NCBI GenBank assembly: GCA_021775895.1
Contig: JAJFGX010000071.1
Coordinates: 1-61,339, forward strand
Length of the DNA: 61,339 bases
Source of the DNA: Alphaproteobacteria bacterium
Lineage (GTDB): Bacteria > Pseudomonadota > Alphaproteobacteria > Micavibrionales > CSBR16-224
Direction of reading: 5' to 3'
A program made the translations under genes and the position numbers. Position 1 is the first letter of the stretch. Every line of letters starts with the position of its first letter. Positions 17,280-32,848 of the stretch are shown piece by piece. The notes under the pieces are model-generated. The model did not search any database, had not been told where the DNA came from, and saw only the letters and a program-made list of their open reading frames with translations.

Positions 17280-17292
17280 CTATGCCCAACAA

Positions 17293-17322
17293 GGCCTGTC
17301 TGAATTTATTTATGGGCAGGCC
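17293..17322. terminator. Possible bidirectional terminator between convergent transcription units
   Basis: GGCCTGTC-(14 nt)-GGCAGGCC forms an 8-bp stem with one G-U pair. Weak U-rich tracts lie on both sides. Confidence 0.35.
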
Positions 17323-17397
17323 ATATGTGGGTTTTTCATTTAGCTTACAGCAATCAAGCGATAACGATATACAACGCTATGAAAAAATAGATTTAAA

Positions 17398-18105
17398 CTA
17401 TGCTTCATTTGTAGAAATAAGCCGTCCATCTTTATCAGCAATGCGTACTTCGTCACGGGGAGTGAGAGCATTACTGGGCCAACGAGCCTCCAGTAAACGA
17501 TCTTTTTTTAAGCGTGCTATAGAAACACTATTAGATTGATTGCCGCCAATAATTTGATAACATGTATCATCTTCAGCCCAATAAAAGCCTACATGACCTT
17601 GCCAGCCATCGGGTTCTCCACGCCAAAAAACCATAATTGACCCTAGTTGTGGTATGTCACACTCTTCACCGAATTTACGCCAATTTCTAGCACCAAGAGG
17701 ATTAGTTGGTAATGGTTCTTCTGATAATTGAGATCCAATACAATGAGCAGTAAATAACCCACACCACGGAGTTTCATCATCAGAATAATCAATACGAAGA
17801 GCTTTACCCCAGCCAATAATAGCCTCATTCGATCCGGCACCCGGATCTTCTTGAGTGCCAATAAGTTGATATGCTTCAGCAAGCCAAGGCATATATAGTG
17901 GTACTGCCTTATCTGTATGTGGTACATCTTTAGCAAATAAAGCTGACAAAGTTATAGGGCCAACAATACCATCTATTACAAGACTATTATCTTTTTGGAA
18001 TTCTTTAATAGCAGCAATAGTTTTACGCCCCATAATGTTGTCAACGGGGCCTGGATTATAACCTTTTTCTTTTAAAGCAAGCTGGATATCTTCAACAGAT
18101 GCCAT
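17398..18105 (-). CDS. Giant-operon gene 7: leaderless peptidoglycan-binding domain + NlpC/P60-superfamily (TIGR02594-like) cell-wall hydrolase
   Basis: The N-terminal PG_binding_1 pattern is 'LKEKGYNPGPVDNIMGRKTIAAIKEFQKDNSLVIDGIVGPITLSAL'. The C-terminal domain has the candidate nucleophile 'TPWCGLF' (Cys115), 'GHVGFY' (His171) and 'IIGGNQSNSV'. AGGAGG lies 8 nt before the ATG. There is no signal peptide. Confidence 0.85.
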   Translation of the reverse strand: MASVEDIQLALKEKGYNPGPVDNIMGRKTIAAIKEFQKDNSLVIDGIVGPITLSALFAKDVPHTDKAVPLYMPWLAEAYQLIGTQEDPGAGSNEAIIGWGKALRIDYSDDETPWCGLFTAHCIGSQLSEEPLPTNPLGARNWRKFGEECDIPQLGSIMVFWRGEPDGWQGHVGFYWAEDDTCYQIIGGNQSNSVSIARLKKDRLLEARWPSNALTPRDEVRIADKDGRLISTNEA

Positions 18106-18119
18106 ATTTTCCTCCTATA

Positions 18120-21100
18120 TTAAAATAAGCTTCCTGTGCGGGATACTATAAGTTTGTCTTGTGGGTTATCAATATTATGCTGTTTTATAAGAGTATTCAT
18201 CTCCGCAAAACCTACATTCTTCTTTTTTGCTAAAGGAGTTTTTGTTGCAGTTAATGTTGCACTCCTGACAGCGTCATAACTTGGTTTTTTTACAGAGAAT
18301 GGTGATTTAGATGTGGTATCTATTCTTGTTACTTGTAGTAGTTTTCCAACGTTTATAGAGGATAAAATCTGGGGTGTTCTTTTGGTTAGACGCTTTAAGT
18401 TAAGCTCCTTATCAATATATATCTCCTCAAAATCAACAGTTAATTCTGCCTGTAGCCCCTGTTTTGTAGTGTTTTGTGTGATAGAAACACCGCTTTCCAT
18501 CTCTTCAAAAGATGGAGCAGTTATTTTCTCATTATTTGTCATGTTAAAGAAGTTAGCAGAGGCAAACCATTCTGTGATGTAATCATCATTTTTGACATTT
18601 ATTTCTGTATCTCCTGTTTTCAGCTTGGAAATTGATATTTTTTTATTACCATCAATTTTTGCACCGCCAAATGTTTCTAATGTTGTATTTAGAGGAGCAA
18701 TTCTTTGTGATACAGTTAAACTACCTCCGGCATAATAACGTATATCTTCATCTGTTTTCTGTTCACGGAAATTTATAAAACGTGCACAATTATCATCTTC
18801 TGAAATTGCCCAGTTATCTTTTTCTGTGAAAGCAGCAGTGATAAGTTCAGTAACGTTATAATGCTCTGCAACATTTTCTTTTTTATTGCCTGCGGTAATA
18901 GACAGATTTATTTTCTTTTTTATTTTTAGAATCTCAAATGTAGCCTTACCATAGATTTCCCATGGTGCTGGCCCTATAATATCTGCCGTAACATCAACTC
19001 CCATTAATGTTACACTTCCCGCTCTGACTGAAACTCCAAATCCTGTATGGAATTGGAAACCAAATGGTACATATTGAATTAAGGCGTCCATCTCCAAATA
19101 ACCCTCAGCAGTAAAACCTGAGAATTTTGCCCAAACATCTACACGCCCGCCAAATTGCAATGTATTAGAGGTAAAAGCAAGATAGCAAGATACATCTACA
19201 CTGGCATTCTTACCAACTGGAAGAGATGCTTTCATACGTCTTAATTGGGGGAATTCTGCTGGAGGCTTGAACTTTGGATTAAAACCTCCAACTGATAAAA
19301 GCATTGTTGGGTTGCTAATTAGACTGGCACGCATAGCCATATCACCAGATAGTGTCAGGATATGCATGATATGGGAGTCACGCAATACAGCATCAAGAGC
19401 AAATGTTCCTGCCGATAAATCAGCTATGCCGAATACATCCATATGTAGCTCAACAATTGTAACTTCAGGGGTTGGCAACATGGCAGCAACTTGTCCGATA
19501 AGAGCGATACGAACAGGGTCTGGCAGTTCAACCATTACACCAAGATCAACTGTGATAAGTGAAGGTGTTCCCCAACCAATTTTCATCATTGCGCCAAAAA
19601 TAAATTGCCCCTGTACTGATGGGAAAACGGCAGAAATATCACTAATAATTTTTGGTGCATTCGCAACAGGGTCTTCGGGAAACATGATTGAATCCATAGC
19701 ACCGGTTAGTAAACGTTCACGAAGGGCATCATCATCTAAAGCTCGATGTAAACCGACTAGCCCGCCAACACCATTTAATGTGAAACCAAAGCCTAGTTGT
19801 ATTGGTGGAAATTCACTGAATATACTAAGGAATAGTGACCAACCATCTGATCCATCTGGCATTTTAGTGTTTAAAATACCAATAGCTGACAGACCTAAAT
19901 TAACAAATCCAACCTCAGCTATACCAGCATATTGAAATTTACTCTCATCATGTGATAAATATCCGCCACCTTTGACAATACCGCCGTCAATAGCAAGCCC
20001 CAATCCTATTGGTGGTTTTAAGCCAAGTTTTAAGTCCAAATTACCAAGCAATCCGCTTTTTGTACTATCTTCCACAGGCACTAATTCTGCCCGCATACCA
20101 ATATCTTCAACGACAAAACTTATAACAGATACATCTAGTCCACCTGTTACTGCAATTTCTAATATAGCCCCATCTGTTCCTGCTCCAGCCATAATGCGGA
20201 TATGAGATAGGGTAATTGGCCCAAGGTCTTTGTTAACTGGGATAATCACCTCAAAACCTGCACCACCTTCAAATTGCAAACCATTTTCTAGCGACCATAT
20301 CAGCCCTGCATCGGCTGTTACAGCCAGTTCATTATCTCCCAAAATTTCACGGATAAAACTATCACCGTCTTTAGGGGTTAAATAGAGTTTTAACCCTTGT
20401 TCTGCACCGCCGCCAGTACGTATGCCAAATGATAAATCAGGAGAGCCATCTGCTATAGATGCTAAACCAATTTCACTGGACAGGCTTGATAGTTCCAGTC
20501 TAATTCCATCTGGGTTACCGAATAATATCCAAGGCTCTTCAGGCTCCCCAACAAATTTTAGAGTAATATCATCATCCGGTTTTGTTGTTTCAAAAGTAAT
20601 AGCATCATGCTGAATATTAATGCCAACCGCTTGACGAAGAATATCAATTGTATCGGAATAATCCATTGTCCAGTCTTTGGATAGCGCAATTTCTTCTGGT
20701 GCCTCTCCAGCAAGTCTGGTATTTAAAAATAATCCATATTCCTTATCTTCAGTTGCATGAGGAACAGGGGCAAGAGACATTATTGGTTTAAAATTACGAA
20801 TTGATTGTGCAAATTTATCTGGTAATAAGTTTGTATTAATTTCTTTTATATCGCTACTACCACCAGTTTCTGAGTAAAAATCATTTGCAATAACCTCGGA
20901 TAAAGAGCTGTACTCTGTGTTTAGAGAAAGGCTATTCAGTAGACGCCATAGCTTGAACATAAACATATTCTGATCAAACTCTTGTCCCCACTTATAGTAA
21001 TCAACAACAGTTTTATGAGGGTTTTTTAAAAACGCACTAAACTGGTTCCAGTCAAATTCACGTAAAGGGTCTTCTTGGTCTTCACGAGGTGTTTCTAAAA

Positions 21101-21545
21101 CCGCACCAACGAAATGTAAAGACTCATAAATGAATTCATAATTAATATATAGCCAGCGCATTAATAGGTAATTTGGTAGTTTTAGTGCAAATTCTTTCCA
21201 CCAGTCTTTCTCATTCATTGGGGAGGGAAGGGCAGTTATATTACTTCCAGAAATACTTTGTAGGCTGCTAATAATGCCGTGCAAGTCTTCTGCGAGTAAG
21301 ATAACCTGCTCGGTAGCTCTACCTGCTGTAATGTTTTCATTTTCTGTATCTTCATAGACCTCTATGAGGCTCTCAATAATATCTTTTATATCAAGAACAG
21401 ATTCTATCACTTGATATTGGTCATCATTTAAGGTGATTTTCCACCCAACATCTTTAACAAAAGTTATAAAATGCTCTTTGCTTTCCGTTGCAACAACGAG
21501 AGGAGAGAAATATTCAATAATAATGCGAAGAATAGGTATCTGCAT
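18120..21545 (-). CDS. Giant-operon gene 6: 1141-aa protein, helical N-terminus plus a long Gly-rich beta region (DUF6603-like from memory)
   Basis: AGGAG lies 7 nt before the ATG. Residues ~340-885 carry 'GGYLSHDESKFQYAGIAEVGF', 'IQLGFGFTLNGVGGLVGLHRALD', 'SVGGFNPKFKPPAEFPQLRRM' and 'FTSNTLQFGG'. No catalytic or NTP-binding motif was seen. Confidence 0.9.
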   Translation of the reverse strand: MQIPILRIIIEYFSPLVVATESKEHFITFVKDVGWKITLNDDQYQVIESVLDIKDIIESLIEVYEDTENENITAGRATEQVILLAEDLHGIISSLQSISGSNITALPSPMNEKDWWKEFALKLPNYLLMRWLYINYEFIYESLHFVGAVLETPREDQEDPLREFDWNQFSAFLKNPHKTVVDYYKWGQEFDQNMFMFKLWRLLNSLSLNTEYSSLSEVIANDFYSETGGSSDIKEINTNLLPDKFAQSIRNFKPIMSLAPVPHATEDKEYGLFLNTRLAGEAPEEIALSKDWTMDYSDTIDILRQAVGINIQHDAITFETTKPDDDITLKFVGEPEEPWILFGNPDGIRLELSSLSSEIGLASIADGSPDLSFGIRTGGGAEQGLKLYLTPKDGDSFIREILGDNELAVTADAGLIWSLENGLQFEGGAGFEVIIPVNKDLGPITLSHIRIMAGAGTDGAILEIAVTGGLDVSVISFVVEDIGMRAELVPVEDSTKSGLLGNLDLKLGLKPPIGLGLAIDGGIVKGGGYLSHDESKFQYAGIAEVGFVNLGLSAIGILNTKMPDGSDGWSLFLSIFSEFPPIQLGFGFTLNGVGGLVGLHRALDDDALRERLLTGAMDSIMFPEDPVANAPKIISDISAVFPSVQGQFIFGAMMKIGWGTPSLITVDLGVMVELPDPVRIALIGQVAAMLPTPEVTIVELHMDVFGIADLSAGTFALDAVLRDSHIMHILTLSGDMAMRASLISNPTMLLSVGGFNPKFKPPAEFPQLRRMKASLPVGKNASVDVSCYLAFTSNTLQFGGRVDVWAKFSGFTAEGYLEMDALIQYVPFGFQFHTGFGVSVRAGSVTLMGVDVTADIIGPAPWEIYGKATFEILKIKKKINLSITAGNKKENVAEHYNVTELITAAFTEKDNWAISEDDNCARFINFREQKTDEDIRYYAGGSLTVSQRIAPLNTTLETFGGAKIDGNKKISISKLKTGDTEINVKNDDYITEWFASANFFNMTNNEKITAPSFEEMESGVSITQNTTKQGLQAELTVDFEEIYIDKELNLKRLTKRTPQILSSINVGKLLQVTRIDTTSKSPFSVKKPSYDAVRSATLTATKTPLAKKKNVGFAEMNTLIKQHNIDNPQDKLIVSRTGSLF

Positions 21546-21557
21546 AAATTTGCTCCT

Positions 21558-23726
21558 TTAGTTTGTTCCACCTAGAAATGTTTCTGCATCACGGGCAGAA
21601 TGACCAAGAAAATCAATATCTACCTGCAAGGGGTTTTCTGGGTTGCAGTTAAATCTATTTCTGAAATGCATACGTATTTTTTGTTCTACAGCTTTTAAAT
21701 TATCTGCGGCATCATCTGCTTTCAAAATATCCAGAATTTCATAAAACTCATCACCAAAATCTAGTTGATCTGCAGGAAGGTGCAAATCGAATTTATCTGT
21801 AAGTGCTTTTATAATTTCATCGGGTGTTTTAGCGGCTTCATCTGCATTTTGCATGAGCTCACGGATTAGATCATTTTCAAATTCAGCAACTGCACGGTTT
21901 AGTTTTTCCAAAGCTCCCATTGATGTACCATCACCTATCAGATAAACTTTCTTGAAAGCAGCCTGAATATAACTTAAAACTTCTGGATCAGTTGCATATA
22001 GAAGCTCATAATTACTTAAATCATCAATTTTACTTCTAATATTTGCTGGAACAAAACCACTACTTTCCAGAACTTTCCGTATTTCTCTTATTTTTAGTTC
22101 AGGAACAGTCGTTATGACACGATGCCAGTCAACTTTGAATACAATAACATTGGAAAAACCTTCTATGATCCCTAACGGAAGTGCATCTGGGCCTTCCAAA
22201 AATCCAATTAAAAGTCTGGTTACATCACTTCTAAGCTGCCGAATAATTTCTCCATTAGCAATTGTTACATCATCTAACTCTTTGAAACGAAGGAGGTCAT
22301 TAAAGCGGCCTACAGATTTCATTTGCACTAGTACAGCAACCTCTCCAGCCCCTTCCATAAGGGTTGTTAAAGTCTCGCCAACTAACTGAGTCTGTCGACG
22401 CACTCTTTGAGCTAATATAATCAGATCCGCAGCACAGCGATTGCCAATACGAGATTGCAGTAATATCTTTTCTGCTGGAAAATGGATAAGAGCTACAAGC
22501 GCAGTACGTACTTCAAATAGGTAGCCATGCTCCATATTTTGGCGTCTAAACATTTTTTCAAATATATCTGCACTACCTTCCAGAAAGAAATAATCCAGCA
22601 TTACTTTATGAATATCTATGTCTTGTCTGGCACTGACTTTCAAAATAGTATCAGCCTCTTTATAAAGTAGTAAGATACAAGAAAGAATTTCTTTTGTAGC
22701 CATCAAACTATCTAATCTTCGTGCCCCAAATAATTTCGACACATGACTTGTATCTAGATCAGCTAAATTCCATCTGGGAGAATAGTACCTAAATAACCAC
22801 TGTATATTATAGGTCATAAGATAAGAGAAATAATCAGTGATTTCTCCATTGATATTTACTCCCTGTCCTTCAAGAAATTCTTTAAACCCTTTATAGTATT
22901 CAGTGTGAGGGGTATCAGTTGGAATACCAGGAAAACGCCCCGGAGCTTTTAATTTTGTAAGCAGACCAGGTGGCAAGTCTAAAATAGTTTCTGCACCAAT
23001 AGTTTCAAGAAATGTTAGTGCTTCCATAATTTTTGTACGTAGTGAGCTTGCATCAAGAACAGTTTCCACGACATCATCTAGAGCATCAGCTGCAGGTTCT
23101 GTATGGCGTATAAGTTTATCTATACCAAACCAATTATTCCGTTTAAGTGGGCGTCTGACCATTTCTATATAGGCGGTGTAATCATCTCCTAGTAAAATCT
23201 TAAGTACATGTGCTGTTTGTGTTAGCTCATTACGTTTAACCATCAGGAAGAGCTGAGGAGAATCTCTAAGTTGTTCGAATGTAGGTGGGTTAGCCGCACT
23301 ATAGGGGGCTGGAAAATCCAGATTATGCTGCCGAATAAAATCCTCTATACTTCCTCCACTATTTCCGGGCATTGCACGCCATCTTTCATACATGGTATCC
23401 AGTGTTTTTTTGAAACGGGTATGTGAACATTTTAATAAGGGAATTTTAAAGCTCTGCTTTGTGAAATCATATATTAAGCTAAAAGGAACTCTAAATACTC
23501 CAAGATTACCTTGCGTGTGTTCAGCTAAAAGGGATAGTGCTCTGGCATAAACAAGAGCACGCCTGCTCGAAAGATCTCCTCCAGATAGTTTTGTAAGTGC
23601 ATCTTTAATCTCATCTTTACTTTGACCAAGAATATCCTTGCCTATTTCTTCTACAACTTCATCAGTTGCGTCTAAACCCTCAAAACCAATGATACGCCTT
23701 AAAGCGGAAAGAACTGTATTTGCCAT
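21558..23726 (-). CDS. Giant-operon gene 5: 722-aa hypothetical protein, apparently mostly helical
   Basis: Its ATG shares one base with the upstream stop (TAATG). No recognisable motif, signal peptide or TM segment. Confidence 0.9.
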   Translation of the reverse strand: MANTVLSALRRIIGFEGLDATDEVVEEIGKDILGQSKDEIKDALTKLSGGDLSSRRALVYARALSLLAEHTQGNLGVFRVPFSLIYDFTKQSFKIPLLKCSHTRFKKTLDTMYERWRAMPGNSGGSIEDFIRQHNLDFPAPYSAANPPTFEQLRDSPQLFLMVKRNELTQTAHVLKILLGDDYTAYIEMVRRPLKRNNWFGIDKLIRHTEPAADALDDVVETVLDASSLRTKIMEALTFLETIGAETILDLPPGLLTKLKAPGRFPGIPTDTPHTEYYKGFKEFLEGQGVNINGEITDYFSYLMTYNIQWLFRYYSPRWNLADLDTSHVSKLFGARRLDSLMATKEILSCILLLYKEADTILKVSARQDIDIHKVMLDYFFLEGSADIFEKMFRRQNMEHGYLFEVRTALVALIHFPAEKILLQSRIGNRCAADLIILAQRVRRQTQLVGETLTTLMEGAGEVAVLVQMKSVGRFNDLLRFKELDDVTIANGEIIRQLRSDVTRLLIGFLEGPDALPLGIIEGFSNVIVFKVDWHRVITTVPELKIREIRKVLESSGFVPANIRSKIDDLSNYELLYATDPEVLSYIQAAFKKVYLIGDGTSMGALEKLNRAVAEFENDLIRELMQNADEAAKTPDEIIKALTDKFDLHLPADQLDFGDEFYEILDILKADDAADNLKAVEQKIRMHFRNRFNCNPENPLQVDIDFLGHSARDAETFLGGTN

Positions 23727-26533
23727 TATAAATTCCCCCCATGTTTTACAAGATTTTTAACAAATCCTGAGCTTGCGAATGGAAGAAGTGCTGCTACCCC
23801 CATAATGGCTAAATCAACTTCTGTGACAGGCTCTCCCCATTTATCTTTACCAGTGACGATTGAAATAGCAAAATCGGCAATATCAACAGCATCGCCAACA
23901 AATGGAATAAAGCCAATTGCAAGATCAATATATAAACGAAATAAAATCACATCAAGAGTTACTTCCTGTATGCCATTATAGTTTATATTTGTTGTAAATA
24001 CGGCCGTTCCTCTAAGCTTCGCAAGCTCTAACGGTTCAGATATATCTGTATCAGTTAAGCTATAGGAAATATCTTCAATGGCATTAATCTGTTCTGCGTT
24101 ATAGATATTTAAGCTCTCAATGGCACTGCCTTCAAAAACTTCCGAAGGATTATCACCAGTTAAAACACGTTCTTTTTTATCATAAAAATGCTTTTCCATG
24201 TCATGTTCCAGATAATAACCCTCTGGTGGAATAGAATTAATATGATCAGTTTCACCATTAGGAGCCTTGGTTTCATAGAAAAAACTACGTGCCCATGACT
24301 TGGCACGATTAATATTTGTTCCATAAGGTTGTTGGTGGGCATATTGATAAATACCACGATAATTTTCCCTGACATTAACAGTGACACCGGGTGTAAAATG
24401 CACAATAAGTTTATACATTTCAAAACCTTTGTCAGGATAGTTTAGATGAAATACTTCTCCTAAAGTAAAGTGACCACGTTCTTCAACATTTGCCAGTTCT
24501 TGTGCTCGCAGGGTTTCAGCAGCGACCCAATTATCATGAATTTTATCGATATAATATCCAAATCTTTGATTGGAAGAATGTGGATCAACTAAAATTTCAA
24601 CTTCCAAAAAATATGGTTCATCTTGTGAGCCAACAACTTTTGGAACAACAGGGCAGGAAATTGTTATTCCAACTATGGAGTCATTAATATATTTTGGCTT
24701 AATATAGAAAGCAGGAAATTTATCTGATGTTGGTGGTGGCTGGTCTTCAGATATGCCAAAACTTTCTTTCATATTATCTGGAACATTTTTAATTGCCATC
24801 TCCATATCTACGGGCATGTAATGCATTTGTTCTTCTATTACTATATTTTCATTAGAGCTAATTTCAGGAATATCATTATCATATGGGATATATTTTTGCC
24901 CATTTGGGTGAAGCAAAACATTAGATGCGGAATATTGTGGTTGGTGACAAGTATGTATATCAATTGGTTCATACCATTCTGATACATAGGCTGCATCTTG
25001 TACACGGTATATTAATACCTGACATGTTTGAGGTAAGCCATTTAGCCCTGATATAGAAACACCCGGTGCCGCAACAATCATCAGTGTTGCTAATCTATCC
25101 TCGGTAGGCTCTCTATACTCCCATGTAAAACAGTCTTTTGGAGTAAAGTAATTATCTGTATCATGATTATATAAGTACTGCTCTTGCTCAACTGAAATTT
25201 TAAAATCGTATAGATAGAAATCTATGCCTATTACATCATCTTCTGTCTCAAAATGAGGGCCTGACATATATTTATAATAAAAGTAAAATGGAGCCCTTGT
25301 ATTTTCTAAAGACATGATCTCAAATTCTGGCAATGGAACTTCAATAACGCCAAAATTTACAAGCGTTAAAATTGTTTCAAAATAAGATAATTGATCCATG
25401 TGCCATAAAATATAGTCTGGCATTTCCGCAGAGCTACTATCAATCATCTCTTTGATTGAAGAGATAAATTTTGCTCGTTTTTCTTTAGGGGTGAAAATAC
25501 GAATAAACCAGTTTGAATCTTCCGCCATAAAAAGGGTAGAGCGATCAAGGGTTTGTTTTAATACTGAATATACATCACTGCTGTAATCCATTATATATTC
25601 TGAAATATCTATACCAAATGATAAACCAGGTATAAGGCTATCTGTGGCTATGCTGGCTAGAGGATTATCAAAAAAATCAAAAAAACTGTCTAATGCACCA
25701 AAGCGGTCAAATTCAAGAGACATACCTGAAAAGAAACGATGCCATATTTTTCCAGCTTCTTCCCTGAACAGAGCGCCATCATTGTCATTTGCAAGGTCAA
25801 AACTCCAGTAAGATGTATTTAGAATCCATAATAGACCAGATGGTAGAGTGCTATTAGGAGAGATGACCTCCGCTTCATAAAATTCTGATATTTGCTCCAG
25901 CTTTCTATTTTCTTCGTTGTCATCTTCTAAATTTTCTGTTCCAAATTCTGCAATATAACCAAGAGCAATGCGCATATTGAGCTTAAAGAACATTAGATAA
26001 TATAAAATATCATTTATTTTAGATAGAAAATCATTAAAAGTTATTGTGTCATTATTATCATAAGAAGAAACGATGTTTAATTTAGAGCTTTCTTCATTGT
26101 ATGAGATAGAAAGGTCTGCAAGCTGTATATCATATTGAGTATAAACAGATGCGAATAATGCAAGCTCAGTCGGTGAATTAAACTCTAATGGAATTGCACA
26201 TCCTGGAATTGCGGTAGCTTTGATGGAGAAGCTGCCAGACTCTGTTGTATATGCTTCTGTTGTAAGTTCCATTGTGTCATGGTTTACTACTATATATTTT
26301 CTTAAATCCCCTATTTCATATAGTAAACGGGTTTCTTCCAAGCGATATCCCATTAATTGAAGTAACAAATATGTACTCATAAAAATGTCTTCATAATGTA
26401 TTGCAAAGCTATCTAAATTAAAATTTGGGATATCTTGAGTGATTTCATCCATGTCATAGATAAAACCTTGACCACGATTAAATTTATTAATTTTAAAGAA
26501 TGGTAGATTAAGTGGAGTAGTATCTATTGTCAT
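23726..26533 (-). CDS. Giant-operon gene 4: 935-aa acidic, aromatic-rich protein ending in a PT-TG-like (pre-toxin TG) hydrophobic hairpin
   Basis: ATGA overlap with gene 3. The C-terminus is 'IGFIPFVGDAVDIADFAISIVTGKDKWGEPVTEVDLAIMGVAALLPFASSGFVKNLVKHGGNL'. Confidence 0.9.
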   Translation of the reverse strand: MTIDTTPLNLPFFKINKFNRGQGFIYDMDEITQDIPNFNLDSFAIHYEDIFMSTYLLLQLMGYRLEETRLLYEIGDLRKYIVVNHDTMELTTEAYTTESGSFSIKATAIPGCAIPLEFNSPTELALFASVYTQYDIQLADLSISYNEESSKLNIVSSYDNNDTITFNDFLSKINDILYYLMFFKLNMRIALGYIAEFGTENLEDDNEENRKLEQISEFYEAEVISPNSTLPSGLLWILNTSYWSFDLANDNDGALFREEAGKIWHRFFSGMSLEFDRFGALDSFFDFFDNPLASIATDSLIPGLSFGIDISEYIMDYSSDVYSVLKQTLDRSTLFMAEDSNWFIRIFTPKEKRAKFISSIKEMIDSSSAEMPDYILWHMDQLSYFETILTLVNFGVIEVPLPEFEIMSLENTRAPFYFYYKYMSGPHFETEDDVIGIDFYLYDFKISVEQEQYLYNHDTDNYFTPKDCFTWEYREPTEDRLATLMIVAAPGVSISGLNGLPQTCQVLIYRVQDAAYVSEWYEPIDIHTCHQPQYSASNVLLHPNGQKYIPYDNDIPEISSNENIVIEEQMHYMPVDMEMAIKNVPDNMKESFGISEDQPPPTSDKFPAFYIKPKYINDSIVGITISCPVVPKVVGSQDEPYFLEVEILVDPHSSNQRFGYYIDKIHDNWVAAETLRAQELANVEERGHFTLGEVFHLNYPDKGFEMYKLIVHFTPGVTVNVRENYRGIYQYAHQQPYGTNINRAKSWARSFFYETKAPNGETDHINSIPPEGYYLEHDMEKHFYDKKERVLTGDNPSEVFEGSAIESLNIYNAEQINAIEDISYSLTDTDISEPLELAKLRGTAVFTTNINYNGIQEVTLDVILFRLYIDLAIGFIPFVGDAVDIADFAISIVTGKDKWGEPVTEVDLAIMGVAALLPFASSGFVKNLVKHGGNL

Positions 26534-28266
26534 GATGCTACCCTCTTGTTTATTTCAACCATGTCTACAGTTCTATCTGAAGATCTATTACCGGAAGAAG
26601 GGCGTTTTTTACGACCATTCCATACTATAAGTTTACCGCTTGCATCTCGTGCTGCTTGATAGCTACGAGTGATTTCAATTGCACCTCTTGGTATTTCTTC
26701 TTCATATATAAAAAATGGTTTATCTGGTTCTAGAATTTTACCTTGTCCACCAGCCAGTGTTTCTTTTAACTCACCTAGTAAATCCCATTCACGCATTCTG
26801 GAACGCCTTAAAGTATTGGTTGTTTTGTTATCTTTTATTTCTGGAGAGAATGGCACCCAATAAGGTGGTGTAATAGAAAGAAGACGGTAAACCCATGCAT
26901 CTTTTTGCTCTTCAGTTGCATCATCAGGAAGAGGGTCACTATTACCGAGGTAAGTTACAATCTGGTCACGATAACGCATATATTCGGCATGGCGTGACAT
27001 TGTATGACCTGACTGTGTTTCTAGCTTTTCCTCAATTGCCCAAGCCATATTAGCCATTTCATCACGTGTCATTATGACTTTTTCAACTGGTTTATCTTCT
27101 TGTCCCCCCAGTAAAGTACGTGGGCTATATAGCCATGGTGCAAAACCTTTTTCAGCAGAAGGGTCACCTTTTAGCTCGAAAAAACGCCAATCACGGTTTT
27201 TACCATCATTTACAGCTGTGGGTTTGATACTATGCTTCTCACCAAAACAATCATAAACTGTTACAGTTTCAACACGTGTTATACTTCCCGAAGGCACAGG
27301 AAGTGGTAGCATATACCAGTCATTACTATAGATGGTAGCAAACTCTGTTAAAATCATTTGTGCTAAATCAGTAGAGTTAGCTGCAAGACCGCCAAAGAAA
27401 ACTTTACCATCTTCAAAATCCCAGAATCGTTCGGCAGGCATGCCAGCATATCTAACTGGCGTTGGAATTAAATAATTAGGCTGTGTTTTTTTCAGTTTCT
27501 GATCCAGTCCTGTCGATTTTTTTGTCCAGAGATTAAAATGATACCAATCGAGCTGACCACCATTATAAGCAGTCGATTGCAAGACAGGCTGTGTTTGCCC
27601 CTGCTTTTCTGTTTGTATAGCAAAACTGTATTCTTGTCGTGGAGACTGCCAATGTTGTTGATTTTTAGATAAGAAACGGTCTTGATAATAAGAGTGCCAA
27701 AGATTGAGCTTTTTTTCTAATGTATTTTCAGCAATACCTGATGCGGATAATAATGACAAAACAGAAGCAAGACGCATGTTAGACATTTTTGCACCATCAA
27801 AACTTTTTCTAATGAGTCTATCAAGAAAAGCACTTTTACCTATTTTATTATCATTTAGTTTTAAGGGCAATTTTGTTTGTAAAATAGGTAGTAATTTTCG
27901 TTGTTGCCCTGAACTGAACTGTCGCAGAAACTGAATACCTGCTTCAGCAGAAATGCGTGGGGAAGCAATACCATTTATAACATCTTCCGCTTCTATTTCA
28001 GCTTCCAGCAATGCGGTATTGTCAATTTTAAGGGGTTTTCCAGTTTTTCCTGCTTCATCTACTGGTATAATATTTTGAACATTTAACGAAGATGAAACTA
28101 GCTCTGTTTTAATGGGGGAGGCGGCATCCTCTCCTTGAAAACCGCCAAATTGCCATTGGCGACACAACGTCCATAAGGGATCAGCTATACGGGCTTGCAA
28201 ACCTTTACGGGTGTTACGAGTGCGATGTCTTCCATTGATGCGTGTCCAATCATCTCGCTGTGTCAT
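26530..28266 (-). CDS. Giant-operon gene 3: 578-aa hypothetical protein
   Basis: It starts 1 nt after the gene-2 stop, with AGGGGGG upstream. Conspicuous blocks are 'DPLWTLCRQWQFGGFQGEDAASP' and 'GMPAERFWDFEDGKVFFGG..TEFATIYSNDWYMLPL'. Confidence 0.9.
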   Translation of the reverse strand: MTQRDDWTRINGRHRTRNTRKGLQARIADPLWTLCRQWQFGGFQGEDAASPIKTELVSSSLNVQNIIPVDEAGKTGKPLKIDNTALLEAEIEAEDVINGIASPRISAEAGIQFLRQFSSGQQRKLLPILQTKLPLKLNDNKIGKSAFLDRLIRKSFDGAKMSNMRLASVLSLLSASGIAENTLEKKLNLWHSYYQDRFLSKNQQHWQSPRQEYSFAIQTEKQGQTQPVLQSTAYNGGQLDWYHFNLWTKKSTGLDQKLKKTQPNYLIPTPVRYAGMPAERFWDFEDGKVFFGGLAANSTDLAQMILTEFATIYSNDWYMLPLPVPSGSITRVETVTVYDCFGEKHSIKPTAVNDGKNRDWRFFELKGDPSAEKGFAPWLYSPRTLLGGQEDKPVEKVIMTRDEMANMAWAIEEKLETQSGHTMSRHAEYMRYRDQIVTYLGNSDPLPDDATEEQKDAWVYRLLSITPPYWVPFSPEIKDNKTTNTLRRSRMREWDLLGELKETLAGGQGKILEPDKPFFIYEEEIPRGAIEITRSYQAARDASGKLIVWNGRKKRPSSGNRSSDRTVDMVEINKRVAS

Positions 28267-28267
28267 A

Positions 28268-31200
28268 TCATGCCCCCCTAGCTAAAGTTAGATTTTTTGC
28301 TGCAAAAACAGCAGGCAGATGCTGGTCAAGCTCTGTAATATTTTCATCATCCAATCCACGCATTCTTGACCAATCCAGACTATGTTTCAAAGTGTCGAGC
28401 ATTAGATCAAAATTCCATGATTTTCTTTCTGGTGCCATTGCTAGCAACATAACTTGAGGAGGCTCAGAATTAGGTGCATCAAAATGCAAGGCAATGCCTG
28501 TATCCTCTTCATTGGAGGGTAGGCGTTCGACGACTTCATCAACCATTATGCCCGTCATCTTTCCAGTAGCGAAATCTGCGGGAGTTACATGTGGAGGCAT
28601 AAGAACAAGAACAGATTGCCTATGTCCTTGCCCTTCTATTTGCTTATCTTGCGGTAGAGACATGGCAGTCCATTTTTCTCCATCAATATCAGGAAACTGA
28701 GCTACGGCAAAATTTCCTCCGCCATCGACAAAGCCAGCACTATCTTGTGTAAGCAATGCTTCAGAAAAACATTTTAAATGAGGTCTGACATATTGCATTT
28801 TCTCCAGCCAAACGTAGCTGTCAGTTTCACTGTTTTCAAAACGCATGTTTGTGCGTTTAATGGAATTGCTCCATGTTGTGGCCTGCATCTGTGATAATTC
28901 AATAAGACTAAAACTAGGGGAAGCATGCCCAATAATGATATTAGCAATTTTGTGCAATGTTTCATTATCCAGAGCATTAAAATCGTTATCTTCCCCAACC
29001 AAGTTATCAATTTTCTCTAAACGTTTGGTGAGTTTATCTGCTATAGATCTGATTTCTGATATGGCAGTCTGGATAACAGTTTTTTCATCTTGATGGTAAA
29101 ATGTAGGAATATTTTCTGTTAGCAAAAAGCGCATAGAAGTTAAGAATATTTCCTCTATATTTTGAATAGCAGCACTCAGCCCGCCAAAAGATAAAGCACC
29201 ATCTTGTTCATGTATATTTGCTATGAACTCTGTTCGTTTGTATAAATTACGTAAAGTGGTAACGCCTGATTTCAGATGTGTAATAAACTCGTCTGGAAGA
29301 CTGGTTGTTCCGATATTTTCTTCTGTGCTGTCGAACATAAAATCTTCTATTTTTATAGCGCGGGTTTTATCCAGTACATCACGCCATCCCATTAATAGCA
29401 ATAAGCTGTCTTGTGTATTATCTGTGTCCTCTATATATGGCTCTGCTTCTGCTGGAATATTATCTGGTTTATTGGCATTAAGGAATAGTTTGATCCATTC
29501 TGTAATAGCGCTGTTATGAGTTTCCACATCAGTTGGAAGCATAGGCAATACATCCAATACTCCAAGAGAAAAACGTGTATCTTGTTTGCTTATATCTGCT
29601 AATGAAATAGTTTCTTGCTTAATATAAGTATCGTCAGGTAGGCGATAAGCTACATCAAATTTGATATTCTTTATATCGCCGATAATGGAAGATAACATAT
29701 GTTCTGTATCGGTAAATAATTTAGTACGCAAGCTATTATCTTCTTCCGCCCATACAGTATTAGAAGCTTTTTCAGCGGGCATGAGCATCATAACCTTATG
29801 AGTTAATGTCATACCTTTTCTTTGTGTTTTTAGTATATTCAGCTCAGGTGGTGCTATATCGCCCTGTCCAACAGCAGTAAGTGTAGCCCCAGCCCGTGCG
29901 GTATTACCTTGAACTAGCGAGTGAACGCTATCTGCAATAGCAGCATCAGCCAGTGCATCTCGCATGTCAGCCAATTTATTGATAAATGGTGTAACTTCTT
30001 TTAAATCTAACCCATCGCTATATTCTGATTTGGAAAGATGTTTTAAGAAATTGGTTTGTTGCGTATCCATTGCCCATAAATCATATAGAGCTAAACCGTC
30101 TACAACGGGTGATTTTGGATCACTCTTTTCTTGGGTAAAGGATAAAACAGCCTCACGCACCGGGTAAACCCAATGGTCTTTTTTTCCTTCATGTAATACT
30201 CTTTCAAAAGCATAGCCAAGAACATCTCCTAAATCCTGCCCTTGCCGTACAGCATCAAACATCCAACTTGCTGTGTACATTCTTTCTGAGCTAAGATCGA
30301 CAGCAAAAGGAGTATTTGTTCCTTCTTCACGATAAGCCTGATATCCAGATCGTAAAACAGCAGCAGTTTTAGCATGGTTCAAAGATGGTGTATGGATAAA
30401 TCCTTCACTAATTTCATTTCCTGTGACTGTTTTACTACGTGGCTTTAAATTCTCTACCCAGCCAAAAGCTCCTAATTGTAATCCTGCTTCTTTTTTATTA
30501 CGTAAATCTTGCAGGCGTTTGCTGTGCATTGAGCCATACCATGCATCAAGTCGCCACCCAAACAATCCCAGTGTTTGCTGCATTAATAATTCCAGTTGAT
30601 CTTCGGGTAAAGTCTCCAGAATAGACAAGGCTGTAACGAGTTCATTTAATCTTTTAGCTCTTAAATTTTTAAATTTTGGTTGATTAGGCGAAATGGCTTC
30701 TGTGTTTAACCGAGTTCTAGGTGTATCATTGCTTACTCTTCCTATGGCTGTATAAACTAATTGATAAAGCAGAGGTTTGCCTTGACCTTGTAGTGGTGAT
30801 GTTCCAGCATCATTTCGGCTATTGAGCAGTGATTTGGTATATTGTTTTAGATAGGAAAGGTATTGCGCTGGTAGAATAGTTGTTCCATCATCCTTTTTAA
30901 TAGTAATCAGACTATTACTTGATAAACGGTCTTCTTCACTTTTATAACGACTGTAAACTATTTGCGGGTCATCAATTTCTTTGCGTAAGTTGGTATCAAT
31001 CATATCTGGAATAAGGCTATTAATTTCTTTAGCACGCATGTAATGGTCTTCTGTCACATCTATAAGCATATCCAGTATATCTAAACCTTGTGTGATTGTT
31101 TTCTTTTCACCACGATTAGTAACACTTTTGCTTTCTGCCTCAATTTGTGCTTTTACCAATATATATGTAGATTTCTCAATGCTGGAGGAAGAGTAGGTTT

Positions 31201-32842
31201 TTGTATACAGATCATCAAGATCAGCAGTGGTATATTTTTGTAAAGTCTCGGTTAAGACACTGTATTTCTTATCAAACAATGCCATTTTTATAAGTTCATA
31301 CCAAAATAAAATAAGGCTTCTATTATTACTTAATTGCTTGCCGGAAAATTTAACCGGATTGGGTTGCTGGCTCAACAAATCAAGTAATCTATCGCTGATC
31401 GCACCACTACCTTGTGCAAATTGTGTAAGCTGTACAGCAGATGATTTATTTTCCACCCAGTTTTCAGATAGTTTTTGCAATATTTCGAAGAGCTTTTTCT
31501 CATATTTATCTTTTGGCTGCATATGGTCGGCAGCTTGAATAGGGAGAATACCGTAAGGTGTTTCACCTATGCGAATGGTTGGGAGAGAGGCTCCACCTTT
31601 CACATATGTTTGTGTCCAGTCTTGTACATAGCTTATTTCTTCGCTTGATAATAAAGATTTTTTCTCTGTTGATAAAAGTGACTGTAAATATTCGCCTAGT
31701 GTCACTCCCCATAAAGCTGTATTCATCGCTTGCATGGCTTTTTGTTCAAATCCTTCGCGGTATTCGAAAGATTTAAGGATTGAGTTTTGTTGTAGCCCTA
31801 GTGCTTGTTCCAGAATGTTATAATTTTTATCTTTTTCAGATATGGAGGTATCATTGTTAGGAATCATTGCTCCGGAACAGGTTAAATCTGTATCAGTTTC
31901 TGGAGTGGTTGTTTTATTGGTATCTTTCTCGGTAAAGCTACGATGCCATACAGCTTCCAAATCTTCAGCAAAGGCTGACCACCCAGTATTAACTTCCTCT
32001 GTATTATTGGTTGGCATGCCTTGTGGTACGAAACCTGCACCTTCAGTATAAAAATGATTATTTAATGTATCAGCAAAGTATTTAGCCGCTTTTTTTGGTG
32101 TAAGATTTGCATCTTTATCTTTTATTTTTATACCTAGAACATAAAGCTTATCAAATCCATTTTGCATGTCATCGGTTAAACTAACCTCTACCCCCATGCC
32201 TTTATTTTTGGCTTCATCAAAGTCAACCATCCATTTAATGGCAGGATCAACAGATAAATCAGTAGGAATTTCTTCAGCGTTTTGTAGGTTAGGACTAAAA
32301 CATAAATCAGGGTCAATAGCTGAACTGACAGTTTCCAATATTCGTTTACTGCCTTTATACCCGACAACAAACCAGTAATCAGGCAACAGCTTTGATGTCA
32401 TTACGGTATAGTCATTATCTTCACGTAACTGTGAGGAGGGAATATTTTTATTTTCTGTCTTTTGGGCAACATAGGCGGCACGAGCTGTACCCATTATAGA
32501 AACAAGCCAGCCCCAAGCCTGTTTTCTATTTTCTTCATAGTTATCGCTTCCTTCAAATTTCGCCAGATCTTTCCAGAATTTTTTACCTGATTTATATTCA
32601 TCTTTAGTAAGTTTGGTTTCATGCTCATTCATAAAAATACGGTCTGGAAAAACACGAATTTTTAAAGAGGTTGGTTTTTTAGTAGGTAAAAAACGAGTTT
32701 CAATTCGCACTGGCAGCATTAAAACAGGAATGCCCTTTTTTAAATTCTCAAAATCTTTTTTACGAGAATCTATAGTTGTTACAACTCGAATAGGGTCAAC
32801 ACGTCGTATTGGTGTGTCTATTATGTCACGGCGGATAGGCAT
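28268..32842 (-). CDS. Giant-operon gene 2: 1524-aa hypothetical protein
   Basis: It starts 6 nt after the gene-1 stop, and the SD GAAGGA is embedded in the end of gene 1. Blocks are 'LPVRIETRF..LKIRVFPDRIFMNEHE' (N-terminus) and 'GIALHFDAPNSEPPQVMLLAMAP' (C-terminus). No Walker A or HExxH. Confidence 0.9.
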   Translation of the reverse strand: MPIRRDIIDTPIRRVDPIRVVTTIDSRKKDFENLKKGIPVLMLPVRIETRFLPTKKPTSLKIRVFPDRIFMNEHETKLTKDEYKSGKKFWKDLAKFEGSDNYEENRKQAWGWLVSIMGTARAAYVAQKTENKNIPSSQLREDNDYTVMTSKLLPDYWFVVGYKGSKRILETVSSAIDPDLCFSPNLQNAEEIPTDLSVDPAIKWMVDFDEAKNKGMGVEVSLTDDMQNGFDKLYVLGIKIKDKDANLTPKKAAKYFADTLNNHFYTEGAGFVPQGMPTNNTEEVNTGWSAFAEDLEAVWHRSFTEKDTNKTTTPETDTDLTCSGAMIPNNDTSISEKDKNYNILEQALGLQQNSILKSFEYREGFEQKAMQAMNTALWGVTLGEYLQSLLSTEKKSLLSSEEISYVQDWTQTYVKGGASLPTIRIGETPYGILPIQAADHMQPKDKYEKKLFEILQKLSENWVENKSSAVQLTQFAQGSGAISDRLLDLLSQQPNPVKFSGKQLSNNRSLILFWYELIKMALFDKKYSVLTETLQKYTTADLDDLYTKTYSSSSIEKSTYILVKAQIEAESKSVTNRGEKKTITQGLDILDMLIDVTEDHYMRAKEINSLIPDMIDTNLRKEIDDPQIVYSRYKSEEDRLSSNSLITIKKDDGTTILPAQYLSYLKQYTKSLLNSRNDAGTSPLQGQGKPLLYQLVYTAIGRVSNDTPRTRLNTEAISPNQPKFKNLRAKRLNELVTALSILETLPEDQLELLMQQTLGLFGWRLDAWYGSMHSKRLQDLRNKKEAGLQLGAFGWVENLKPRSKTVTGNEISEGFIHTPSLNHAKTAAVLRSGYQAYREEGTNTPFAVDLSSERMYTASWMFDAVRQGQDLGDVLGYAFERVLHEGKKDHWVYPVREAVLSFTQEKSDPKSPVVDGLALYDLWAMDTQQTNFLKHLSKSEYSDGLDLKEVTPFINKLADMRDALADAAIADSVHSLVQGNTARAGATLTAVGQGDIAPPELNILKTQRKGMTLTHKVMMLMPAEKASNTVWAEEDNSLRTKLFTDTEHMLSSIIGDIKNIKFDVAYRLPDDTYIKQETISLADISKQDTRFSLGVLDVLPMLPTDVETHNSAITEWIKLFLNANKPDNIPAEAEPYIEDTDNTQDSLLLLMGWRDVLDKTRAIKIEDFMFDSTEENIGTTSLPDEFITHLKSGVTTLRNLYKRTEFIANIHEQDGALSFGGLSAAIQNIEEIFLTSMRFLLTENIPTFYHQDEKTVIQTAISEIRSIADKLTKRLEKIDNLVGEDNDFNALDNETLHKIANIIIGHASPSFSLIELSQMQATTWSNSIKRTNMRFENSETDSYVWLEKMQYVRPHLKCFSEALLTQDSAGFVDGGGNFAVAQFPDIDGEKWTAMSLPQDKQIEGQGHRQSVLVLMPPHVTPADFATGKMTGIMVDEVVERLPSNEEDTGIALHFDAPNSEPPQVMLLAMAPERKSWNFDLMLDTLKHSLDWSRMRGLDDENITELDQHLPAVFAAKNLTLARGA

Positions 32843-32848
32843 GTTTTT

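What the first reader, a model, noticed from the sequence alone, without database searches (positions are those of the whole stretch)
17398..18105. Leaderless PG-binding + NlpC/P60 hydrolase is translationally tethered to the end of the giant operon
Seen: the PG_binding_1-type N-terminus and the TIGR02594-like Cys115/His171 domain. There is no signal peptide, lipobox or adjacent holin, and AGGAGG lies 14 nt after the gene-6 stop. Established: cytoplasmic murein hydrolases reach their substrate via holins (phage, type 10 secretion of Tc toxins and chitinases) or as passengers or effectors of secretion machines. Inference, two options: it opens the sacculus for assembly or release of the >0.6-MDa product, or it is the delivered antibacterial effector of the system.
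Basis: partly seen in the sequence, partly recalled or inferred. Interest (0 to 1): 0.7.

Follow-up and report, generated by a model that had tools for sequence, protein, structure and literature searches.

The report
Endolysin-type wall hydrolase ending giant operon
The gene encodes an ordinary phage-endolysin-type cell-wall peptidase with no export signal, and it is an optional partner, seen in a few lineages only, of a very widespread giant-protein operon whose function nobody knows, which makes it the first functional clue to that operon.

Summary
Window 18105..17398 (minus strand) encodes a 235-aa protein with PG_binding_1 (aa 3-56) and a TIGR02594 NlpC/P60-like domain (aa 73-207). Cys115, His171 and Asn189/Gln190 are invariant in 113 homologues. 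It has no leader peptide and starts 14 nt after the DUF6603 gene, behind its own AGGAGG.

The protein is not unusual. It belongs to a large endolysin family: at least 572 IMG/VR contigs, 584 phage records, and the characterised Lysqdvp001 at 33% identity. Within that family it sits in a monophyletic cellular clade whose members are mostly stand-alone genes.

The conserved operon core is g6(DUF6603)-g1-g2-g3, with or without g4 and g5, and most copies have no hydrolase. The link is still not random:
- The closest hydrolase homologue (71%) lies just upstream of a g1 homologue.
- A Rhodobacteraceae operon has a distant PG_binding_1 + Cys/His homologue lying convergent to it, 44 nt after g6.
- A Streptomyces module starts with a giant PG_binding_1 protein.

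What recurs is proximity, not translational coupling.

Best reading (about 0.45): an accessory, endolysin-like enzyme that opens the producer's own wall to release or assemble the leaderless giant complex. A delivered effector (0.2) and chance adjacency (0.25) remain open. The operon itself has no known domain or fold match.

The parts
17398..18105 (-). g7: 235-aa leaderless PG_binding_1 + TIGR02594 (NlpC/P60/CHAP-like) murein peptidase
   Evidence: AF2 model pLDDT 87.9; Foldseek top PDB hits are NlpC/P60 and CHAP enzymes
17938..18099 (-). PG_binding_1 domain (aa 3-56)
   Evidence: Pfam E 2.3e-15. Best PDB sequence hit is the PG-binding domain of phiKZ endolysin gp144, E 2e-6.
17485..17889 (-). 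TIGR02594 catalytic domain (aa 73-207), with Cys115 (17761-17763), His171 (17593-17595), Asn189/Gln190 (17536-17541)
   Evidence: NCBIfam 89.3 bits, above the 70.55 cutoff. Residues are invariant in 113 homologues. Codons were read.
17401..17415 (-). C-terminal S-x-N-E-A tail (aa 231-235, STNEA), a family-wide conserved C-terminus of unknown role
   Evidence: shared by the cellular clade, by prophage homologues and by Lysqdvp001. The tail has low pLDDT.
18106..18119 (-). 14-nt g6-g7 intergenic spacer TATAGGAGGAAAAT, containing the SD AGGAGG (18116..18111)
   Evidence: There is no stable structure across the junction (-9.4 kcal/mol, z +1.0).
18145..18172 (-). sigma70-like promoter candidate TTGATA-16-TATAGT (10/12) inside the 3' end of g6, about 40 nt upstream of the g7 ATG
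   Evidence: It is the best-scoring site in the region, but the site count is not above shuffles (12 against 8.7 +/- 3.2).
17285..17331 (-). hairpin between g7 and the convergent gene; a possible bidirectional transcript end, without a canonical U-tract on the minus strand
18120..21545 (-). g6: 1141-aa DUF6603 protein, a core gene of the module
   Evidence: Pfam DUF6603 E 7.5e-124; homologous loci
21558..23726 (-). g5: 722 aa, variable gene with no family match
23726..26533 (-). g4: 935 aa, variable. Only its C-terminal hydrophobic hairpin (aa 858-876 and 906-924) is conserved elsewhere.
   Evidence: weak DUF4112 hit
26530..28266 (-). g3: 578 aa, the most conserved core gene. A confident AF2 model finds no PDB or viral structural match.
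28268..32842 (-). g2: 1524 aa, core gene with no Pfam or PDB match
32849..35794 (-). g1: 981 aa as listed (probable true start at Met10, 35767), core gene

Best explanation
g7 encodes an active, endolysin-type murein peptidase. An N-terminal PG_binding_1 module anchors it on the sacculus. A C-terminal papain-like Cys115-His171-Asn/Gln domain of the TIGR02594 (NlpC/P60-CHAP) type cuts the peptide part of peptidoglycan.

Like phage endolysins it is made without any export signal. It stays harmless in the cytoplasm until the inner membrane is breached.

In this genome it is the last cistron of the seven-gene transcription unit g1-g7 and is expressed with the six giant leaderless proteins, by read-through and possibly also from a promoter inside g6.

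It is an accessory, lineage-specific partner of the DUF6603 module, not a core subunit. Its most likely job is to open the producer's own wall so that the cytoplasmically made complex of about 650 kDa can be released or assembled across the envelope. This parallels the lysis cassettes that release Tc toxins, eCIS particles and tailocins.

Shown: domain identity, intact catalytic residues, leaderless state, operon position, family membership, recurrent but facultative linkage.
Inferred: co-transcription, action on the producer's own wall, and the way the enzyme crosses the inner membrane. No holin was found. The only TM-like element in the operon is the C-terminal hydrophobic hairpin of g4.
For: Domains and catalytic residues.

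Endolysin family:
- At least 572 hits in IMG/VR, full length, 36-52% identity.
- Neighbours there include a Mu-like late activator, an Rz-like spanin, head and tail genes, and small 1-2 TM ORFs.
- 584 isolated-phage records match, including the characterised endolysin Lysqdvp001 at 33.5% identity over 99% of the query (PMC9180635).

Operon position: same strand, 14-nt gap, no intervening hairpin. Composition matches the operon and the rest of the genome.

Recurrent linkage:
- P0002, the closest homologue (71%), lies 94 nt upstream of a g1 homologue in L007-L009.
- In the Rhodobacteraceae operon L017/L205, a PG_binding_1 + Cys/His homologue lies convergent, 44 nt after g6. BLASTP gives E 1e-5 and aligns C115, H171 and GGNQ.
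- The S. longwoodensis module is preceded by a 1514-aa PG_binding_1 protein.
- The R. lusitanum module is followed within 15 kb by LGFP-repeat, 2x GH25 and glucosaminidase genes.

All of g1-g6 lack signal peptides. The haloarchaeal versions of g2 and g3 are annotated as BGTF surface domain-containing and lamin tail domain-containing proteins, which suggests an extracellular destination.

No conserved immunity gene was found.

Precedent for lysis-cassette release of giant complexes: PMC10847046. eCIS particles are released by lysis: PMC8213781.
Against: - No holin or spanin lies next to g7.
- Most operon copies have no adjacent hydrolase. L039 and L041 were seen end to end. L010 and L016 were seen at the 3' end. 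About 20 Bacteroidota-type loci were seen within 10 kb of g6.
- The 169 hydrolase loci screened (L001-L009, 80 viral, 80 metagenomic) show no g1-g6 gene next to the hydrolase, apart from L007-L009.
- P0005, 83% identical to the operon-linked P0002, sits between icd and a CBS gene.
- Constitutive co-expression of a lytic enzyme with the operon would need a control step that has not been identified.
- No experiment of any kind exists for this clade or for the operon.
Confidence: 0.45

Rival explanations
1. Delivered antibacterial effector. The DUF6603 module is a toxin-delivery apparatus, and g7 is a cargo enzyme that degrades the wall of target bacteria. It is encoded at the 3' end as eCIS and T6SS effectors often are.
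For: - TIGR02594 domains occur in VgrG-linked T6SS effectors of Stenotrophomonas (PMC13055248, PMC13340143).
- eCIS-associated toxins tend to lie at the 3' ends of operons, and one (EAT10) is a PG hydrolase that is 10^4 times more toxic in the periplasm (PMC8213781).
- In Chitinophaga ginsengisoli the module directly precedes an eCIS cluster.
- PLD-like and DUF2235 genes lie a few kb upstream of the DUF6603 gene of a Streptomyces module; reading them as lipase-type effectors rests on prior knowledge of those families, not on a test here.
- g4 and g5 are hypervariable.
Against: - No conserved immunity gene exists. The convergent secreted 250-aa neighbour has no family and no homologue near any other hydrolase. 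orf99 in L007 has no leader. Nothing is found in L205.
- The cellular clade is strongly conserved (55-71% identity across classes) and mostly stand-alone beside housekeeping genes. This is unlike fast-evolving polymorphic effectors.
- No eCIS or T6SS genes occur in the window or in the other loci.
Confidence: 0.2
2. No functional link. g7 is a stand-alone, domesticated endolysin-like gene of the host, for example an autolysin. It happens to lie next to the operon and is read through or transcribed from its own promoter.
For: - The clade is monophyletic, cellular and usually unlinked.
- The best promoter-like site of the region lies just upstream of g7, inside g6.
- Most operon copies lack the gene.
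- A close relative of the linked P0002 is unlinked.
Against: Adjacency recurs in different arrangements: after g6 in the window, before g1 in L007-L009, and as a distant homologue convergent after g6 in L205. In Actinomycetota a PG_binding_1 protein leads the module. With a handful of PG_binding_1 genes per genome, the chance of adjacency is of the order of 1e-3 per genome. That figure is my estimate, not a computed statistic.
Confidence: 0.25
3. Local wall-remodelling enzyme exported by the machine itself, like the leaderless FlgJ of the flagellum or the specialised hydrolases of T3SS, T4SS and T6SS. It would make a gap in the sacculus for an envelope-spanning structure without killing the cell.
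For: The protein is leaderless, has a PG anchor domain, and is encoded within a multi-gene unit of giant proteins. The analogy rests on established knowledge of FlgJ, EtgA, VirB1 and TagX, not on a test made here.
Against: g1-g3, g5 and g7 have no TM-like segments; only g4's C-terminus and two hydrophobic stretches in g6 do. There are no secretin, ATPase or other envelope-machine hallmarks. The hydrolase is absent from most modules.
Confidence: 0.08

Closest known systems
Lysqdvp001, endolysin of Vibrio phage qdvp001 (qdvp001_060)
   Same: Same two-domain order (N-terminal PG_binding_1, C-terminal CHAP/TIGR02594-type Cys-His domain), same length (236 aa), same S-x-N-E-A C-terminus. 33.5% identity over 99% of the query. 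Lytic activity has been shown experimentally (PMC9180635).
   Different: It is phage-encoded. The window protein belongs to a separate, monophyletic cellular clade and has no phage genes around it.
TIGR02594-type endolysins of Mu-like and other prophages (IMG/VR; Rhizobium phage RR1-A, Caulobacter phages TMCBR2/Kronos)
   Same: Full-length homologues at 36-52% identity. They are leaderless. They sit next to late activators, Rz-like spanins and small TM ORFs, that is, in lysis cassettes.
   Different: The window gene has no holin, spanin or phage neighbours. It follows a non-viral giant operon. g3 and g6 are absent from 2.9 million viral contigs.
Phage-like lysis cassettes and type 10 secretion that release Tc toxins (YenTc) and other giant extracellular machines
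   Same: A cytoplasmically made megadalton complex without signal peptides, plus a linked leaderless wall hydrolase. Release occurs by controlled lysis (PMC10847046).
   Different: Those cassettes contain a holin and spanins beside the endolysin. Here only the hydrolase is present, and the linked operon is unrelated to Tc toxins.
T6SS TIGR02594/NlpC-P60 effectors (Stenotrophomonas VgrG4-linked LysM-TIGR02594 protein; Tae families) and the eCIS toxin EAT10
   Same: Same catalytic superfamily, leaderless, encoded at the end of or beside an injection-system cluster.
   Different: These effectors come with VgrG/PAAR or eCIS core genes and an adjacent immunity gene. None of these is present here.
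NlpC/P60 D,L-endopeptidases with solved structures (T. thermophilus 4xcm; C. difficile Acd24020, 7cfl) and CHAP endolysins (LysIME-EF1, PlyC)
   Same: Best structural matches of the AF2 model, with a papain-like Cys-His core.
   Different: Matches are weak (E 2e-3, TM 0.36-0.62) at 12-18% identity. The bond specificity of the window enzyme therefore cannot be assigned.

Membership tests
TIGR02594 family (NCBIfam subfamily model) | Whole-protein score above the curated cutoff (70.55 bits) | tested here: met
   89.3 bits, E 2.5e-25, aa 73-207 matching 1-130 of 132 model positions
NlpC/P60-CHAP papain-like peptidase superfamily | Conserved catalytic Cys and His, plus a polar third residue, on a papain-like fold | tested here: met
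   C115, H171 and N189/Q190 are invariant in 113 homologues. The AF2 model (pLDDT 87.9) has NlpC/P60 and CHAP enzymes as its top PDB matches.
Pfam CHAP (PF05257) | Score above the Pfam gathering threshold (26 bits) | tested here: not met
   19.8 bits, E 0.0011. It is related to this Pfam model but is not a member of it.
PG_binding_1 (PF01471) | Score above the gathering threshold (23 bits) | tested here: met
   56.9 bits, aa 3-56
Murein hydrolase (enzymatic activity) | Cleavage of peptidoglycan, and which bond is cut | not testable with these tools
   Inferred only, from intact catalytic residues and from the activity of the 33%-identical Lysqdvp001 (PMC9180635).
Phage endolysin / lysis cassette | Encoded in a phage or prophage together with a holin (and spanins in Gram-negatives) | tested here: not met
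   No PHROG hits for the neighbours g1-g6. No small TM ORF adjacent. The cellular clade is separate from the viral sequences.
Type 10 secretion / phage-like lysis cassette for toxin release | Holin + endolysin (+ spanin) cassette linked to the secreted cargo genes | tested here: not met
   Only the hydrolase is present. No holin or spanin was found in 17000-18600 or among the Pfam/NCBIfam hits of the neighbours.
T6SS amidase/peptidase effector (Tae-like) | Genetic link to VgrG, PAAR, Hcp or T6SS core genes, and an adjacent periplasmic immunity gene | tested here: not met
   No such domains in the neighbours that were scanned. No conserved immunity candidate. The rest of the genome cannot be seen.
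eCIS-associated toxin | Located in or next to an eCIS core cluster (sheath, tube, baseplate, spike) | tested here: not met
   tblastn with the Chitinophaga eCIS proteins finds nothing in the window or in the other loci. Only L043 shows module-eCIS adjacency.
Core component of the DUF6603 module | Co-occurrence with g6, g1, g2 and g3 in most copies of the module | tested here: not met
   0 hits for the g7 family in the 25 loci (apart from the distant homologue in L017), and none in L039-L044. The gene is present only in the window and in L007-L009.

The most novel reading that the evidence does not exclude
The DUF6603 module (g6-g1-g2-g3, with or without g4/g5) is a new kind of megadalton extracellular or cell-wall-targeting machine. 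It has no sequence or fold relation to known secretion systems, Tc toxins or contractile injection systems.

The endolysin-type peptidase would be its dedicated wall-breaching or release factor, working without a canonical holin. That would imply a new route by which a leaderless murein hydrolase reaches the sacculus, for example through a membrane lesion made by the module itself via the g4 C-terminal hydrophobic hairpin or the hydrophobic Gly-rich segments of g6.
Probability: 0.2. Interest if true: 0.8.

Novelty: new variant of a known kind. Interest (0 to 1): 0.55.

Why it matters
The enzyme itself is ordinary. Its value lies in what it is attached to.

The g3 family alone has 5,433 cluster representatives at 50% identity. 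It spans Pseudomonadota, Bacteroidota, Actinomycetota, Nitrospinota and haloarchaea. There are no papers on DUF6603. g1, g2 and g3 have no Pfam or PDB match, and a confident g3 model has no structural relative.

The recurrent, facultative presence of PG-binding or PG-cleaving genes beside this module is the only functional handle found so far. It points to the cell wall, either the producer's or a target's. It also makes simple experiments possible: a g7 knockout, a C115A mutant, and a release assay. If the link is real, this would be another case where bacteria borrowed a phage endolysin to get a giant leaderless complex out of the cell.

Tried and rejected
- A first genome-contig scan with g6 alone found nothing. 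The alignment-based scan then worked.
- PADLOC gave no hit for any of the seven proteins, so this is not a known defence system.
- PHROGs gave no hit for g1-g6. g3 and g6 are absent from IMG/VR. A prophage or tailocin origin of the operon was rejected.
- Profile searches of g1, g2, g3 and g6 against PDB sequences gave nothing meaningful. The only hits were gp41-like low-complexity matches for g6 at E > 0.1.
- Foldseek of the g3 model against PDB and BFVD gave no match.
- A Pfam scan of 16 g2 homologues at E <= 1 gave no recurrent family.
- tblastn with the Chitinophaga eCIS proteins against all loci and the window found nothing.
- The convergent secreted 250-aa protein was considered as an immunity candidate. 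It has no family and no homologue near other hydrolases.
- My interim conclusion, that the hydrolase was merely adjacent by chance, was withdrawn after one search showed that the closest homologue sits next to g1.
- A cytoplasmic murein-recycling role was considered and judged unlikely. The N-terminal sacculus-binding domain and the endolysin kinship argue against it.
- PT-TG identity of the g4 C-terminus was suspected by eye, but Pfam does not support it (only a weak DUF4112 hit).

Full report
**1. What is at the coordinates**

The ORF 18105..17398 (minus strand) encodes 235 aa.
- Pfam finds PG_binding_1 at aa 3-56 (E 2.3e-15).
- NCBIfam finds TIGR02594 at aa 73-207, 89.3 bits, above the curated cutoff of 70.55.
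- Pfam CHAP is only sub-threshold.
- Cys115 (17761-17763) and His171 (17593-17595) were read directly. Together with G187-G188-N189-Q190 they are invariant in 113 homologues.
- An AlphaFold2 model (pLDDT 87.9) has NlpC/P60 D,L-endopeptidases and CHAP endolysins as its best PDB matches, at weak E-values.
- The PG-binding domain begins at residue 3, so there is no signal peptide or lipobox.

The g6 stop and the g7 start are separated by TATAGGAGGAAAAT. AGGAGG therefore starts 4 nt after the stop, and it is the ATG that lies 14 nt after it.

**2. What family it belongs to**

The same full-length architecture is very common in phages.
- At least 572 hits in IMG/VR at 36-52% identity.
- 584 isolated-phage records.
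- In viral contigs the gene is flanked by Mu-like late activators, Rz-like spanins and head and tail genes. It is often followed by small ORFs with 1-2 TM segments. These are lysis cassettes.
- The closest characterised relative is Lysqdvp001 of Vibrio phage qdvp001 (33.5% identity over 99% of the query). It is a modular PG-binding + CHAP endolysin with demonstrated lytic activity (PMC9180635).
- The domain also occurs in T6SS effectors of Stenotrophomonas.

The window protein belongs to a large cellular clade: 1,698 hits at E <= 1e-5, the best 120 of them 52-71% identical to the query and, where a source names the organism, from Alpha-, Beta- and Gammaproteobacteria. In a neighbour-joining tree this clade is monophyletic with respect to 19 viral representatives. 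The whole family, viral and cellular, is leaderless and ends in a conserved S-x-N-E-A C-terminus.

**3. What the 'giant operon' is**

g1-g6 (981, 1524, 578, 935, 722 and 1141 aa) are on the same strand, with gaps of -4 to +14 nt, and each has an SD. Only g6 has a known domain, DUF6603, and no paper mentions it.

Comparison with about 40 related loci gives the following picture.
- The conserved core is g6, g1, g2 and g3.
- In Bacteroidota, Cupriavidus, Rhizobium, Streptomyces and a haloarchaeon the order is g6-g1-g2-g3.
- In the window and its gamma- and alphaproteobacterial relatives the order is g1-g2-g3-g4-g5-g6.
- g6 and g1 are fused in one locus.
- g4 and g5 are variable, apart from the C-terminal hydrophobic hairpin of g4.
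- The g3 family has 5,433 representatives at 50% identity.
- A confident g3 model (pLDDT 84) has no PDB or viral structural match.
- Profiles of g1, g2 and g3 have no PDB sequence match.
- The module is absent from viral contigs. It precedes an eCIS cluster in one Chitinophaga genome.
- None of g1-g6 has a signal peptide. In the haloarchaeon, g2 and g3 are annotated as BGTF surface domain-containing and lamin tail domain-containing proteins.

**4. Is the hydrolase part of the operon?**

In the window it looks like the last cistron.
- It is on the same strand with a 14-nt gap, and no hairpin lies between g6 and g7.
- A hairpin follows g7, before the convergent gene.
- Its composition matches the operon.
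- It also has its own strong SD, and the best sigma70-like site of the region lies inside the 3' end of g6. That site count is not significant against shuffles.

Across genomes it is not a core component.
- No g7-family hit was found in the 25 loci around g6, apart from the distant homologue in L017 described below.
- None was found in L039-L044.
- Two six-gene operons seen end to end are flanked by TetR and MntP, or by a group II intron RT and a HEAT-like gene.
- Conversely, of 169 hydrolase loci only L007-L009 contain an operon gene. Of the 160 viral and metagenomic loci among them, 93 have at least 1 kb of flank on both sides.

The linkage nevertheless recurs.
- (i) The closest hydrolase homologue (P0002, 71-72% identical) lies 94 nt upstream of, and co-directional with, a g1 homologue (44% identity over 830 aa).
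- (ii) In a Rhodobacteraceae MAG, the complete six-gene operon is followed 44 nt later by a convergent 326-aa leaderless protein. This protein has PG_binding_1 and a distant TIGR02594-like domain whose Cys, His and GN motifs align with C115, H171 and GGNQ.
- (iii) On a Streptomyces longwoodensis plasmid, the module is led by a 1514-aa protein with a PG_binding_1 domain.
- (iv) On a Rhizobium lusitanum plasmid, LGFP-repeat, two GH25 lysozyme genes and a glucosaminidase gene follow within 15 kb.

P0005, 83% identical to P0002, is unlinked. The association is therefore facultative and positionally flexible. What recurs is neighbourhood, not translational coupling.

**5. Mechanism**

Shown:
- an intact endolysin-type Cys-His peptidase with a sacculus-binding domain and no leader;
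- expression context at the end of an operon of leaderless giant proteins;
- a non-random but optional association of that module with PG-binding or PG-cleaving genes.

Inferred, as the best explanation (0.45): the enzyme acts from inside on the producer's wall, to release or to allow assembly of the complex. Phage-like lysis cassettes do this for Tc toxins (PMC10847046), and lysis does it for eCIS (PMC8213781). The missing piece is the membrane step, because no holin or spanin was found.

Rivals:
- A delivered antibacterial effector (0.2). Favoured by T6SS and eCIS precedents and by the eCIS adjacency. Disfavoured by the lack of any immunity gene and by the high conservation and stand-alone habit of the clade.
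- Coincidental adjacency of a domesticated endolysin-like host gene (0.25).
- A FlgJ-like local wall-remodelling enzyme (0.08).

**6. Verdict**

The protein is a new member of a known endolysin and effector family. Its attachment to an unknown, extremely widespread giant-protein module, without a holin, is a new variant of the known theme 'leaderless wall hydrolase serving a macromolecular system'. Interest is moderate (0.55). Most of that interest comes from the hydrolase being the first functional clue to the DUF6603 module.

Noticed in passing
window 18120-35794 (minus); loci L010, L016-L044, L205, L207-L213: The DUF6603 module (g6, g1, g2, g3, with or without g4/g5) is a very widespread uncharacterised gene set. 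The g3 family has 5,433 representatives at 50% identity. It is present in Pseudomonadota, Bacteroidota, Actinomycetota, Nitrospinota, Gemmatimonadota and haloarchaea. Gene order is circularly permuted (g6 first or g6 last), and g6-g1 are fused in L022. No literature, Pfam (except DUF6603), PDB or PHROG match was found.
   Followed up: partly
window 26530-28266 (minus), g3: A confident AlphaFold2 model (pLDDT 83.9, pTM 0.81) has no structural relative in PDB or BFVD (best Foldseek E 0.22 and 0.025, TM below 0.1). It may be a new fold.
   Followed up: yes
L043 12570-21725 (Chitinophaga ginsengisoli): The four-gene module g6-g1-g2-g3 is followed on the same strand by an eCIS cluster (Pvc16_N, sheath, gp19 tubes, CIS_tube, VgrG-like, PAAR, gp25). 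No eCIS gene was detectable in the window or in the other loci.
   Followed up: partly
L213 (Halalkalicoccus plasmid NZ_CP144124.1): An archaeal copy of the module: DUF6603, then a g1-like protein, then a 3124-aa 'BGTF surface domain' protein (g2-like), then a 'lamin tail domain' protein (g3-like). This hints that the products are surface-exposed or extracellular.
   Followed up: no
window 23726-23990 (minus), C-terminus of g4 (aa 853-935): Two hydrophobic segments (aa 858-876 and 906-924) form the only clearly TM-like element of the operon, and the only part of g4 conserved in L010, L016 and L017. There is a weak DUF4112 hit. It is a candidate membrane anchor or membrane-active element.
   Followed up: partly
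window 17401-17415 (minus), and homologues: The hydrolase family ends in a conserved S-x-N-E-A-COOH tail. It is present in cellular members, in prophage homologues and in the characterised Lysqdvp001. It is disordered in the model. Its function is unknown.
   Followed up: partly
window 16527-17279 (+): A convergent 250-aa protein with a clear N-terminal signal peptide (MKFKNKILTMGATLLLSISFSGHTYAEA). It has no Pfam or NCBIfam family and no homologue near other hydrolase loci. It is the only conceivable immunity candidate, and it is unsupported.
   Followed up: partly
window 35924-36415 (minus): A 163-aa ankyrin-repeat protein with an N-terminal hydrophobic leader lies directly upstream of g1, with weak matches to Legionella Dot/Icm Ank effectors. 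The window is AT-rich (about 38% GC), which suggests an intracellular or amoeba-associated Gram-negative host.
   Followed up: no
window 36658-37677 (minus) and L010 13797-14795: dusB lies upstream of the operon in the window. A Dus-family gene (30% identical) lies downstream of the operon in L010. The module sits near a dus gene in two diverged genomes, in different arrangements.
   Followed up: no
L208 1633-6177 (S. longwoodensis plasmid); L207 23750-37005 (R. lusitanum plasmid): Other cell-wall genes lie beside the module. In Streptomyces a 1514-aa PG_binding_1 protein sits directly upstream of the DUF6603 gene. In Rhizobium, CVNH, LGFP-repeat, 2x GH25 lysozyme and glucosaminidase genes lie downstream.
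   Followed up: partly
L210/L211 (Streptomyces sp. NBC_01724 plasmid): PLD-like and DUF2235 (Tle1-type lipase) genes, plus a BTAD regulator with a PG-binding domain, lie a few kb upstream of the module. This is effector-like company.
   Followed up: no
window 9109-12021 (+): A 970-aa ORF with no Pfam or NCBIfam match.
   Followed up: no
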